Part shown: one piece after another, positions 18,689 to 20,929 of the stretch
Layout: each line of letters begins with the position of its first letter
How positions within the stretch are numbered: the first letter of the stretch is position 1
Notes under the pieces: generated by a model
What the model saw: the letters and a program-made list of their open reading frames with translations, nothing else
Databases searched by the model: none
What the model was told of the DNA's origin: nothing
Position numbers and translations under genes: made by a program
Origin: the human T2T-CHM13v2.0 reference genome, Homo sapiens
Strand: one strand, 5' to 3'
DNA length: 64,000 bases
NCBI RefSeq assembly: GCF_009914755.1
Contig: NC_060926.1

Positions 18689-18724
18689 CTCAGGGACACT
18701 TTGGAGGACACTTTGTATAGGCTG
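18689..18724 (-). CDS. DOCK10: Candidate alternative 36-nt exon of DOCK10 (QPIQSVLQSVPE)
   Basis: atatag|CAG CCT ATA CAA AGT GTC CTC CAA AGT GTC CCT GAG|gtattg; stop-free, phase 0-0; TAGCAG tandem acceptor; weak pyrimidine tract. Confidence 0.6.
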
Positions 18725-19460
18725 CTATATGTCAAATTTCCATATTGATGCTGATGCCGGGTGTTGCATTAGACAATTCATGTTGTGCAAGACTTGCATT
18801 TTTTTAAAGTTCCTGCTATGAACGATCAGTTTTAAACTTGTTTTCTAGTGTCTGGCTCATTACAGACACAATTAGTATTAAATACCCCAGCCAAAACTAT
18901 AAAATGAGAGCAGTGGTCTGCGTGGGACACTAAAAAATTGTACCCAAAGGCCTTTGTGCAGGCAAAGAGCCTATTGCATATCATATTTCCATAATCTTTT
19001 TAACATCATTGCAAGACACGTCAACTTGGATATTAAAAGGTAAGTTTTACAGGGACATAAAGCACCATTATGAATAAGAAATCATTTCTGACCATGGAGA
19101 TTATGCTAATCAAGTAGTCAAGATTTTATCTTAAATCTTCGGAACCTTCATTCTGTACACGTTCGGGGGAATGCTCAAGTCTACTTGGTATTTATTTATC
19201 ATGGAATGTGAAGTGATATGTGCTGTCTGCTCCTGTTGAATCCCATAGTTCTCACTCTCCATGTGGTGTCTTGAGACAGGCATTTGAATCTCATCTGAGC
19301 AATGATGAATGAGGCTCTAATTTGCTGCTTATCAGGATGACCTCCATTGGTTCTCCTTGTTCAAAGGTGGCTGAGTTTGAACTTATGGAGTGTCGTGCTT
19401 AGGCAGGTTCTCAGTCAGAGAATTTAACAAAACACTTTGCCTTTTAAGCTCAGACTGGAA

Positions 19461-19760
19461 TTTTTTTTTTTTTTTTCTTGAGGCAGAGTCTCACTCTGTC
19501 TCCCAGGCTGGAGTGCAGTGGCACGATCTTGGCTCACTGCAAGCTCCACCTCCAGGGTTCACGCCATTCTCCTGCTTCAGCCTCCCGAGTAGCTGGGATT
19601 ACAGGCGCTCGCCACCACGTCCTACTAATTTTTTGTATTTTTAGTAGAGACAGGGTTTCACTGTGTTAGCCAGGATGGTCTTCATCTCCTGACCTTGTGA
19701 TCTGCCCACCTCGGCCTCCCAAAGTGCTGGGATTACAGGTGTGAGCCACCACGCCCAGCC
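19461..19760 (-). mobile_element. Alu (AluY-like)
   Basis: Reverse Alu with gcaagctcc/cacgccattctcc diagnostics. Confidence 0.93.
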
Positions 19761-20923
19761 TTGGAATTTTTTTATAAAGACAAGTGAGAGTACTGCAGCA
19801 TTAAAAAAAAAATCAGGTGTAAAATCAGCACACTTTACTGAGGAGTCTGAAAGAAGAATAAAGTTAGGTCATTTGCAAGGGCTCCCCCCAATACTTCCCC
19901 ACTGCCCCCCCTCAGTCTATTTAGTACAGGGGTTTTCAAGTATTCTTTTAGTAGGTGAGTTAAGGGCCCATAATCCCAAATTTATAAATGAACATAGAAA
20001 ATGCTGGTATGGTATGAATGTGGGAAGGAATTTAAAGAATTACAAAAAAGTATGTACTGGTCAGACAAGTAGGGCTGAATATGGACAATGTGTAGATATT
20101 AAATGCTTTCTCTTTCCAGCTTAACTGACAATAATTAGGTTGAACCATATAAAGTTGCCATTTTTGTACATAAAAAAGTGGTTGAATATAGGCAATTTCA
20201 TATGACTCAAAATAATATGAAGAAAATCCTTTGTCATAGAGCTCTGGGTACTGGCAGGTTATTTTGGACATGGCTTGTTCTCCAAATTTCTTACCTTGCT
20301 CCTTTCTCCATCTCTGGAGACTTACCCAGACATATTGGGTAAAGATTTATTCCCTGGTTCATCTTTTATGTTTGGAATTAGTCCCATCACCTCTGAGAAT
20401 GCTTAGAGCTCACCACCATAGACCCCCATCACTCTAAGACACTCCTTCAGAAAAAACACAGTTTTTTCAATATCTTGGGAGGTGCTTACCAATAACCATC
20501 ACTCCAACTTCCAAAATTCTGACCATTCTGGTCTCCTTAATAAGCTGCAACTCATAGTGGCCTGAAATAAGTAGACGATCTACAATACCAAGTCTATGCT
20601 ACATATATTTAAGATACGTGGTACCCATACTTATCTCTGTGTGTGTTTGTGTATGTAAGGCTTTCAGACTACATCTACCTTTAGGCAGAAAGCATGTATG
20701 AAAAACAAAGGATACATTTTTGTAATTCAGATAACTGGCATAAACACAACTTAGTTAAAGAAATGCAGGATGACTCCAAAAATGAATGAAAGCAGGATTA
20801 TCTCTCCCTTTGTACCAAATGGTGATTTGCACAAAAAGGTTAAGGTTCAGTAAAACCATACAGAGGGAAGTGTGAGGGGTGTTAGAGCATGCAAATGGAG
20901 AGCGAGAGTGAGTGAGAACTTAC

Positions 20924-20929
20924 CACAGC
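20924..20929 (-). CDS. DOCK10: Candidate alternative 6-nt microexon of DOCK10 (Ala-Val)
   Basis: ctcttttcttcttttggtcttgattgttccag|GCTGTG|gtaagt; phase 0-0 in the intron between ...FYGQ and GFFE...; TGCATG ~30 nt downstream (20888-20893). Confidence 0.75.

What the first reader, a model, noticed from the sequence alone, without database searches (positions are those of the whole stretch)
18689..20929. Hidden two-exon cassette module (6 nt + 36 nt) in the DOCK10 DHR2 domain, mirroring DOCK9
Seen: the 8.7-kb phase-0 intron between ...YYRVAFYGQ and [11 protein letters not shown]... contains two in-frame, stop-free exon-like units. In transcript order they are GCTGTG (AV) and a 36-mer (QPIQSVLQSVPE). 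Recalled knowledge: the paralog DOCK9 carries AAQYQFTDSETDVE at the same junction (FGQ^GFFEDE), which splits as 2 + 12 aa with the same Q...E ends. Inference: an ancestral DOCK-D module that inserts 0, 2, 11-12 or 13-14 aa into a lobe-B loop of the GEF domain. It could tune Cdc42/Rac exchange or partner binding in a tissue-specific way.
Basis: partly seen in the sequence, partly recalled or inferred. Interest (0 to 1): 0.8.

Follow-up and report, generated by a model that had tools for sequence, protein, structure and literature searches.

The report
One real DOCK10 microexon, one phantom
The 6-base unit is a genuine, anciently conserved DOCK10 microexon that adds Ala-Val to the catalytic domain and is already annotated in other species, whereas the 36-base unit looks like a chance match and not an exon.

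Summary

**The 6-nt unit (20929..20924, GCTGTG, Ala-Val) is real.**
- It has a long pyrimidine tract and a GTAAGT donor.
- It ranks 1 of 365 candidate units in the intron.
- Exactly "AV" lies between ...AFYGQ and GFFEEE in 46 of 195 DOCK10 protein models, from frog to chimpanzee, including two mouse isoforms.
- It is the paralogue of a 6-nt DOCK9 microexon (Ala-Ala) already in print.

**The DOCK10 36-nt unit is not supported.**
- Its acceptor scores below all 28 annotated acceptors, and it ranks 131 of 365.
- An equal or better 36-nt unit appears in 297 of 300 shuffled introns.
- It shows no similarity to the DOCK9 exon.
- It is absent from 0 of 195 models and 0 of 345 proteins.

The microexon's acceptor also starts a RefSeq terminal exon (20929..14476) that would truncate DOCK10. 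Overall: a known kind, of low novelty.

The parts
23212..23325 (-). Constitutive DOCK10 exon ending ...RVAFYGQ (phase 0), donor CAG|gtaagt
   Evidence: hub gene table
20930..20965 (-). Pyrimidine-rich tract and AG acceptor of the microexon (ttactcttttcttcttttggtcttgattgttccag)
   Evidence: Acceptor score 6.2, against a mean of 3.6 for the 28 annotated acceptors.
20924..20929 (-). 6-nt cassette microexon GCTGTG = Ala-Val
   Evidence: AV lies at this junction in 46 of 195 DOCK10 protein models.
20918..20923 (-). Donor GTAAGT of the microexon. The first 9 intron bases, gtaagttct, are identical to those after the DOCK9 6-nt exon.
   Evidence: donor score 5.5
20888..20893 (-). UGCAUG hexamer 31-36 nt downstream of the microexon donor. 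This is a possible RBFOX-type enhancer site; that role is inferred only.
Evidence: There are 16 minus-strand copies in 64 kb, about 1 per 4 kb.
14476..20929 (-). RefSeq 'other transcript' exon that starts at the microexon's acceptor and runs on through the intron. Its reading frame gives AVVSSHSLSLSICML, then stop (TAA at 20884..20882).
   Evidence: hub gene table
14495..14500 (-). AATAAA poly(A) signal, 19 nt before the end (14476) of the long alternative exon
14323..14469 (-). Constitutive DOCK10 exon starting [11 protein letters not shown]
18689..18724 (-). The claimed 36-nt unit (QPIQSVLQSVPE). Judged a chance AG..GT open unit, not an exon.

Best explanation
The 8.7-kb intron of DOCK10 between the exons ending ...AFYGQ and starting GFFEEEE contains one genuine alternative exon. 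It is a 6-nt microexon (20929..20924, minus strand) that inserts Ala-Val.

It is the paralogue of the 6-nt Ala-Ala microexon of DOCK9, so it predates the DOCK9/DOCK10 split. It has been kept unchanged as 'AV' across tetrapods.

Including it lengthens by two residues the loop that follows the first beta-strand of DHR2 lobe B, just ahead of the acidic EEEE stretch. Its effect on exchange activity or on contacts within the full-length protein is unknown (inferred only).

If the microexon's acceptor is used but its GTAAGT donor is not, the transcript runs on to an AATAAA signal just before the next exon. That gives the RefSeq-annotated terminal exon 20929..14476 and a protein cut off after lobe A.

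The 36-nt unit at 18724..18689 is a chance open AG..GT stretch. DOCK10 has no counterpart of the DOCK9 36-nt exon.
For: Shown:
- Exact sequence and frame.
- Splice score rank 1 of 365 for the 6-nt unit. The same score recovers the two true DOCK9 exons at ranks 1 and 3 of 51 (positive control).
- Only 10 of 300 shuffles reach the 6-nt unit's score.
- Protein models. Of the best 120 of 848 hits to the downstream exon: 12 AV, 83 no insert, 5 other inserts, 20 lacking the upstream anchor. Of the best 120 of 621 hits to a 52-residue region ending in AV: 40 AV+GFFEEE, 73 no insert, 2 other inserts, 5 without the downstream exon, of which 2 read on after AV.
- Union of both searches: 222 proteins, 195 with both anchors, 46 AV, 143 none.
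- AV carriers include Xenopus, Engystomops, turtles, a thrush, echidna, a marsupial, rodents, bats, camelids, a chimpanzee partial model, and UniRef entries named Isoform 2 and Isoform 3 of mouse DOCK10.
- The DOCK9 intron holds cttaag|GCAGCG|gtaagttct and tttatag|36 nt|gtaatt. DOCK9 models carry 0, 2, 12 or 14 extra residues: 49, 1, 8 and 10 of 119 analysed.
- A DOCK9 6-nt micro-exon is listed at hg19 chr13:99461376 (passage of PMC8627023; Supplemental File 2 of PMC4317164).
- Against the 36-mer.
- A bird model (P0321) ends AVVSLVLL..., the same read-through as the human exon 20929..14476.

Inferred: the loop position, from an AlphaFold model with strand 23-31, loop 32-43 ([12 protein letters not shown]) and strand 44-49.
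Against: - No human RNA evidence could be consulted. The hub's RefSeq table (24 transcripts) lists no 6-nt exon, only the long exon that shares its acceptor.
- The splice score is home-made from recalled consensus frequencies, not MaxEntScan.
- The protein library is clustered at 90% identity and each search listed only its best 120 hits, so rare isoforms with a longer insert could be hidden.
- Predicted models of related species are not independent, because they come from the same annotation pipelines.
- No vertebrate genome alignment was available to test conservation of either unit at the DNA level.
- The structure model is weak overall: mean pLDDT 56, and 64-70 around the loop.
- I did not map the hg19 coordinate of the published DOCK9 6-nt exon onto the T2T locus. 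The identity rests on gene, strand and size.
Confidence: 0.85

Rival explanations
1. One reading: DOCK10 has a two-exon cassette module (6 nt + 36 nt) mirroring DOCK9, giving 0, 2, 12 or 14 extra residues.
For: - DOCK9 has exactly this layout in the homologous intron, in the same order and phase.
- The DOCK10 36-mer is in frame, stop-free, starts CAG and ends GAG|gta like the DOCK9 exon.
- The surrounding 321 nt are single-copy in the genome at the search's sensitivity.
- One falcon DOCK10 model carries a second short insert, VSQL+AFFSTEE, so a second cassette at this junction is possible in some lineages.
Against: - Acceptor score -7.3, below all 28 annotated acceptors; rank 131 of 365.
- 297 of 300 shuffles give an equal or better 36-nt unit.
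- BLOSUM62 score -5 against the DOCK9 12-mer, rank 807 of 4532. The only identities are the Q and E forced by splice-site consensus.
- None of 195 DOCK10 models with both anchors has a 12- or 14-residue insert, and none of 48 AV-bearing models has anything between AV and GFFEEE apart from two read-throughs.
- The peptide words QPIQS, SVLQSV and LQSVPE occur in 0 of 345 proteins held.
Confidence: 0.05
2. In human the 6-nt unit is not spliced as a cassette. Its acceptor serves only the long terminal exon 20929..14476, and the AV form is confined to other species.
For: The hub's RefSeq table for human lists the exon 14476-20929 but no 6-nt exon among 24 transcripts. No paper on a DOCK10 microexon was found.
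Against: - The human sequence keeps the intact GTAAGT donor and the AV codons.
- A chimpanzee partial model (P0008) reads ...AFYGQAVGFFEEEE.
- Aligners and annotation pipelines commonly miss 6-nt exons (established knowledge; this is the theme of PMC4317164 and PMC7821500, of which I saw titles and supplements only).
Confidence: 0.07
3. Both units are chance AG..GT stretches, and the AV in other species' models is an annotation artefact.
For: Under the crude score, 10 of 300 shuffles reach the 6-nt unit's value, so the score alone is not overwhelming.
Against: - The identical dipeptide appears at the identical junction in 46 models from amphibians to mammals, from several annotation sources.
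- A paralogous 6-nt exon with the same donor lies in the DOCK9 intron.
- RefSeq uses the same acceptor in human (hub table).
Confidence: 0.01

Closest known systems
DOCK9 6-nt (Ala-Ala) and 36-nt (QYQFTDSETDVE) cassette exons in the homologous intron
   Same: - Same exon junction (FGQ|GFFE) and same phase 0.
- A 6-nt exon coding for A-x.
- A strong pyrimidine tract, and an identical gtaagttct start to the downstream intron.
- All four DOCK9 combinations (0, 2, 12, 14 residues) are seen in models, from paddlefish to primates.
- The 6-nt DOCK9 exon is listed as a micro-exon in PMC8627023 (passage, citing Irimia 2014) and in PMC4317164 Supplemental File 2.
   Different: DOCK10 has only the 6-nt member, coding AV and not AA. 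The DOCK10 intron is 8.7 kb against 1.5 kb. No DOCK10 sequence resembles the 36-nt exon.
DOCK10 AV-containing isoforms already annotated in other species (e.g. UniRef 'Isoform 2' and 'Isoform 3' of mouse DOCK10; many RefSeq X-isoforms)
   Same: Exactly ...RVAFYGQ-AV-GFFEEEE.
   Different: The human RefSeq set in the hub table does not list the 6-nt exon. I could not see GENCODE or VastDB.
Alternatively spliced micro-exons of brain transcripts (RBFOX/PTBP1-regulated: PMC4317164; SRRM4-dependent programme: Irimia 2014, recalled, paper not held)
   Same: Size 6 nt, a multiple of three, deep conservation, location in a surface loop of a signalling domain, and a UGCAUG 31-36 nt downstream.
   Different: Tissue pattern and regulators are untested here. 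DOCK10 does not occur in the 4 readable supplementary files of PMC4317164 (file 1 unreadable), nor in the 7 of PMC7821500.
Composite terminal exon / intronic polyadenylation
   Same: An internal acceptor is used, the donor is skipped, and AATAAA lies 19 nt before the annotated exon end (hub table). A bird model ends with the same read-through.
   Different: No 3'-end data were seen. Whether it is regulated or is noise is unknown.

Membership tests
Conserved in-frame cassette microexon (6-nt unit) | AG acceptor with pyrimidine tract and GT donor of at least ordinary strength | tested here: met
   Acceptor 6.2 and donor 5.5, against means of 3.6 and 3.8 for 28 annotated exons. Rank 1 of 365. The score is crude and built on recalled frequencies.
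Conserved in-frame cassette microexon (6-nt unit) | Length a multiple of three, no stop, frame preserved on inclusion and on skipping | tested here: met
Conserved in-frame cassette microexon (6-nt unit) | Same insert present in orthologues of distant species | tested here: met
   AV in 46 of 195 DOCK10 models with both anchors, from frog to chimpanzee
Conserved in-frame cassette microexon (6-nt unit) | Both inclusion junctions observed in human RNA | not testable with these tools
   No RNA-seq access. Only the acceptor is vouched for, by the RefSeq exon 14476-20929 (hub table).
Neural (SRRM4/RBFOX/PTBP1) microexon programme | Tissue-restricted inclusion and dependence on these factors | not tested
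   Only one UGCAUG at +31..+36 was seen. No paper links DOCK10 to this programme.
Paralogue of the DOCK9 36-nt exon (36-nt unit) | Splice sites comparable to real exons | tested here: not met
   Acceptor -7.3, below the minimum (-3.1) of 28 annotated acceptors. Rank 131 of 365. The DOCK9 36-nt exon scores +5.0 and ranks 3 of 51.
Paralogue of the DOCK9 36-nt exon (36-nt unit) | Sequence similarity to the DOCK9 exon | tested here: not met
   BLOSUM62 score -5, rank 807 of 4532 stop-free 12-codon windows of the intron
Paralogue of the DOCK9 36-nt exon (36-nt unit) | Presence in DOCK10 proteins of any species | tested here: not met
   0 of 195 models. Peptide words occur in 0 of 345 proteins. Limits: only the best 120 hits per search, and 90% clustering.
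Paralogue of the DOCK9 36-nt exon (36-nt unit) | More than chance would give | tested here: not met
   297 of 300 shuffles give an equal or better 36-nt unit

The most novel reading that the evidence does not exclude
The microexon is a decision point, not just a 2-residue insert. Once its acceptor (20929) is chosen, two outcomes are possible.
- Recognition of the adjacent GTAAGT gives the AV form of full-length DOCK10.
- Failure to recognise it gives the 6.4-kb terminal exon, polyadenylated at 14476. The resulting protein (...AFYGQ-AVVSSHSLSLSICML) keeps the lobe-A dimerisation helices but lacks the GTPase-binding lobes B and C.

Such a product could pair with full-length DOCK10 and damp its activity. 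A bird model with the same read-through (P0321) hints that the arrangement is old.
Probability: 0.15. Interest if true: 0.5.

Novelty: already known. Interest (0 to 1): 0.2.

Why it matters
- The practical value is small. It flags a probable gap in the human RefSeq transcript set: a conserved 6-nt DOCK10 exon annotated in mouse and many other species.
- All solved DOCK9 and DOCK10 DHR2 structures use the insert-less form. No structural or enzymatic data therefore bear on the AV form of DOCK10, or on the AA and 14-residue forms of DOCK9.
- The shared 6-nt exon in DOCK9 and DOCK10 dates this microexon to before the split of the two genes.
- The proposed 36-nt exon, which made the finding look novel, does not hold up.

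Tried and rejected
- Looked elsewhere in the intron for a DOCK10 counterpart of the DOCK9 36-nt exon, sliding QYQFTDSETDVE and the falcon AFFSTEE over all three frames. No window combined similarity with AG/GT flanks.
- Tested whether the 36-mer lies in a repeat. The 321 nt around it match only themselves in the genome, at a sensitivity that would miss old repeats.
- Asked whether the Nova2-regulated Dock9 'exons 37a/37b' (PMC4633719) are the 6+36 module. The supplement lists 68-nt and 44-nt Dock9 exons, so it is a different event.
- The Parkinson's preprint on DOCK10 splicing (PMC12424998) gives no coordinates in the passages I read, and bioRxiv supplements are closed, so I cannot tell whether its 'region A' touches this intron.
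- Irimia 2014 (PMC4390143) is not held.
- Searched the DOCK11 intron for a remnant. It holds only a bare CAG|GTAAGT with no exon and no pyrimidine tract.
- A chr14 DOCK11-like processed pseudogene reads straight across the junction with no insert. That fits the insert-less form being the common mRNA, but it says nothing about DOCK10.
- The P0008 fold was confident only for residues of about 21-100, so I did not take it further.

Full report
**1. What is in the sequence**

DOCK10 lies on the minus strand.
- The exon 23325..23212 ends ...RLFGRYYRVAFYGQ with a complete codon, followed by gtaagt.
- The exon 14469..14323 begins [11 protein letters not shown] after ...ttccatag.
- The intron between them is 8742 nt.
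- At 20929..20924 the strand reads ttactcttttcttcttttggtcttgattgttccag|GCTGTG|gtaagttctc. That is a long pyrimidine tract, AG, two codons (Ala-Val), and a consensus GTAAGT donor.
- At 18724..18689 it reads atatggaaatttgacatatag|36 nt|gtattgat, translating to QPIQSVLQSVPE. The 20 nt before that AG are purine-rich.

**2. Are they more than chance?**

I scored every in-frame, stop-free AG..GT unit of 3-63 nt in the intron with a simple log-odds score for acceptor and donor. The position frequencies are recalled approximate human consensus values. This is not MaxEntScan.

| Item scored | Result |
|---|---|
| 28 annotated internal exons of the window | acceptor mean 3.6 (min -3.1); donor mean 3.8 (min -1.2) |
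| DOCK10 6-nt unit | 6.2 + 5.5 = 11.7; rank 1 of 365; the next unit scores 5.9 |
| DOCK10 36-nt unit | -7.3 + -0.7 = -8.0; rank 131 of 365; 6th of 9 units of exactly 36 nt |
| DOCK9 6-nt exon (positive control) | 11.0; rank 1 of 51 |
| DOCK9 36-nt exon (positive control) | 5.0; rank 3 of 51 |

In 300 dinucleotide-preserving shuffles of the DOCK10 intron:
- a unit scoring at least 11.7 appeared in 10 shuffles;
- a 36-nt unit scoring at least -8.0 appeared in 297 shuffles, 4.6 per shuffle on average.

The 6-nt unit stands out. The 36-nt unit does not.

**3. The paralogues**

The window's own genome could be searched.
- The two flanking exons find DOCK9 on contig 13 and DOCK11 on contig 23.
- The DOCK9 intron is 1545 nt. 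It holds ...ctttcttaag|GCAGCG|gtaagttcttcc (Ala-Ala; L010 1631..1626).
- About 450 nt further on it holds ...ataactttatag|CAATAC...GTGGAG|gtaattac (QYQFTDSETDVE; L010 1178..1143).

The two 6-nt exons share GC.G.G and the first nine intron bases, gtaagttct.

The DOCK11 intron (541 nt) has no credible unit; its best score is -1.0 of 40. It contains only a bare CAG|GTAAGT without a pyrimidine tract.

**4. Protein models of other species**

*DOCK10, first search.* The downstream exon as query, longer proteins, returned the best 120 of 848 hits, limited to 2000 residues or fewer:
- 83 with no insert
- 12 with AV
- 3 birds with VSQL or VSCL
- 1 falcon with VSQLAFFSTEE
- 1 camel with a 33-residue insert
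- 20 without the upstream anchor (fragments)

*DOCK10, second search.* A 52-residue region of P0040 ending in AV as query, proteins of 1079-3436 residues, returned the best 120 of 621 hits:
- 73 with no insert
- 40 with AV followed directly by GFFEEE
- 1 with IITASPQK
- 1 with the 33-residue insert
- 5 lacking the downstream exon: 2 read on after AV (P0248, P0321), 2 skip the next exon, and 1 ends there

*Union of the two searches*: 222 proteins, 195 with both anchors, 143 with no insert, 46 with AV.

AV carriers include Xenopus laevis, Engystomops, Gopherus, Trachemys, Catharus, Tachyglossus, Gracilinanus, many rodents, bats, camelids and Bubalus. They also include a chimpanzee partial model (P0008, read in full) and UniRef entries named Isoform 2 and Isoform 3 of mouse DOCK10 (P0252, P0257).

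No DOCK10 model has a 12- or 14-residue insert. The words QPIQS, SVLQSV and LQSVPE occur in 0 of 345 proteins held.

*DOCK9.* The search returned the best 120 of 807 hits, of which I analysed 119:
- 49 with no insert
- 1 with AA
- 8 with the 12-mer
- 10 with AA plus the 12-mer
- 1 with a 9-residue insert
- 50 without the anchor

The carriers include paddlefish, lizards, a turtle, marsupials and primates.

*Limits.* The library is clustered at 90% identity, only the top 120 hits are shown per search, and predicted models share pipelines.

**5. Similarity of the 36-mer to the DOCK9 exon**

Position by position, QPIQSVLQSVPE against QYQFTDSETDVE scores -5 on BLOSUM62. That is rank 807 of 4532 stop-free 12-codon windows in the intron. 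The only identities are the first Q and the last E, which follow from CAG after the acceptor and GAG before the donor. No other window of the intron combines similarity with AG/GT flanks.

**6. The long alternative exon**

The hub's table lists an exon 14476-20929 in other RefSeq transcripts. It begins at the microexon's acceptor.
- Read in frame, it gives AVVSSHSLSLSICML and then TAA at 20884..20882.
- AATAAA lies at 14500..14495, 19 nt before the exon's end.

So when the 6-nt exon's donor is not used, the transcript is probably cleaved just before the next exon. It would encode a protein ending after lobe A. A manakin model (P0321, 1930 aa) ends AVVSLVLLHVLFNSPHTSFILPCTLI, which is the same kind of read-through.

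**7. Where the insert falls**

- The crystallised DOCK10 DHR2 covers residues 1695-2151 (bioRxiv 10.1101/2022.06.15.496229, passages).
- In chains 6tky, 8i5f and 2wm9 the upstream exon ends at residues 192, 229 and 163, and the downstream exon starts at 193, 230 and 164. All solved DOCK10 and DOCK9 structures are therefore the insert-less form.
- The same preprint places dimerisation in helices alpha-4 and alpha-5 of lobe A, and GTPase binding in lobes B and C.
- An AlphaFold model of the AV-bearing chimpanzee fragment was built with a 35-row alignment. Its mean pLDDT is 56, and 64-70 around the site. It shows strand 23-31 (RYYRVAFYG), loop 32-43 ([12 protein letters not shown]) and strand 44-49 (EYIYKE).

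AV thus lengthens the first hairpin loop of lobe B. Any effect on exchange activity is inference.

**8. Literature**

- A 6-nt DOCK9 microexon at hg19 chr13:99,461,376 is listed in a table of PMC8627023, citing Irimia 2014 (passage).
- It is also listed in Supplemental File 2 of PMC4317164.
- I did not map that coordinate to the T2T locus. The match rests on gene, strand and size.
- Irimia 2014 is not held.
- Full-text searches for DOCK10 with microexon, micro-exon, or SRRM4 plus microexons found 3, 0 and 0 papers. Of the three, I read the DOCK10 passages of two, and neither describes this exon. The third (PMC12164585) I saw only in the search listing.
- DOCK10 does not occur in the 4 readable supplementary files of PMC4317164 (file 1 unreadable) or in the 7 of PMC7821500.
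- The Nova2-regulated Dock9 exons of PMC4633719 are 68 and 44 nt, which is a different event.

**9. Verdict**

- The 6-nt Ala-Val microexon is real. It is old, shared with DOCK9 and conserved across tetrapods, and it is already annotated outside human RefSeq.
- The 36-nt exon is not supported by any test.
- DOCK9, not DOCK10, has the two-exon module.
- Novelty is low. The main residue is an annotation gap, plus an untested idea about the competing terminal exon.

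Noticed in passing
window 14476-20929 (minus), AATAAA 14500-14495, stop 20884-20882: The RefSeq alternative exon starts at the microexon's acceptor and ends 19 nt after an AATAAA, just 7 nt before the next exon's acceptor. It would encode DOCK10 truncated after lobe A (…AFYGQAVVSSHSLSLSICML*). A bird model (P0321) ends with an equivalent read-through.
   Followed up: partly
window 20888-20893 (minus): A single UGCAUG lies 31-36 nt downstream of the microexon donor, the classic position for RBFOX-enhanced inclusion. 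Minus-strand density in the window is about 1 per 4 kb.
   Followed up: partly
L011 about 531-539 (DOCK11 intron, contig 23): A perfect CAG|GTAAGT sits in the middle of the 541-nt homologous DOCK11 intron. It has no exon bases and no pyrimidine tract before it. It could be a relic of a lost microexon donor, a decoy site, or chance (about 0.2% for the 9-mer in an intron of this size).
   Followed up: no
L004 880-2679 (contig 14, minus): A DOCK11-like processed pseudogene with broken frames reads ...CLYGQSFFEEDGKEY straight across the junction, with no insert.
   Followed up: partly
proteins P0060, P0084, P0086, P0094 (bird DOCK10 models): Birds show a 4-residue insert, VSQL or VSCL, at the same junction. 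V-S matches a read-through GTNAGY donor, so this is probably an alternative donor 12 nt into the intron. One falcon model adds AFFSTEE (21 nt), a possible lineage-specific second cassette.
   Followed up: no
L010 1631-1626 and 1178-1143 (DOCK9, contig 13: 98019025-98019030 and 98018542-98018577): DOCK9's 6-nt and 36-nt exons are used in all four combinations in protein models. The 12-mer is nearly invariant from paddlefish to human; the only variants are SETDVE, TETDVE and SERDVE.
   Followed up: yes
window 14798-14897: A RefSeq 'enhancer' functional element lies inside the same intron (hub table). It was not examined.
   Followed up: no
proteins P0260, P0265 (DOCK10 models): Two models join ...AFYGQ directly to VNSKDLDPKY..., which skips the 147-nt exon 14323-14469 in frame. 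This could be a real isoform or a model error.
   Followed up: no
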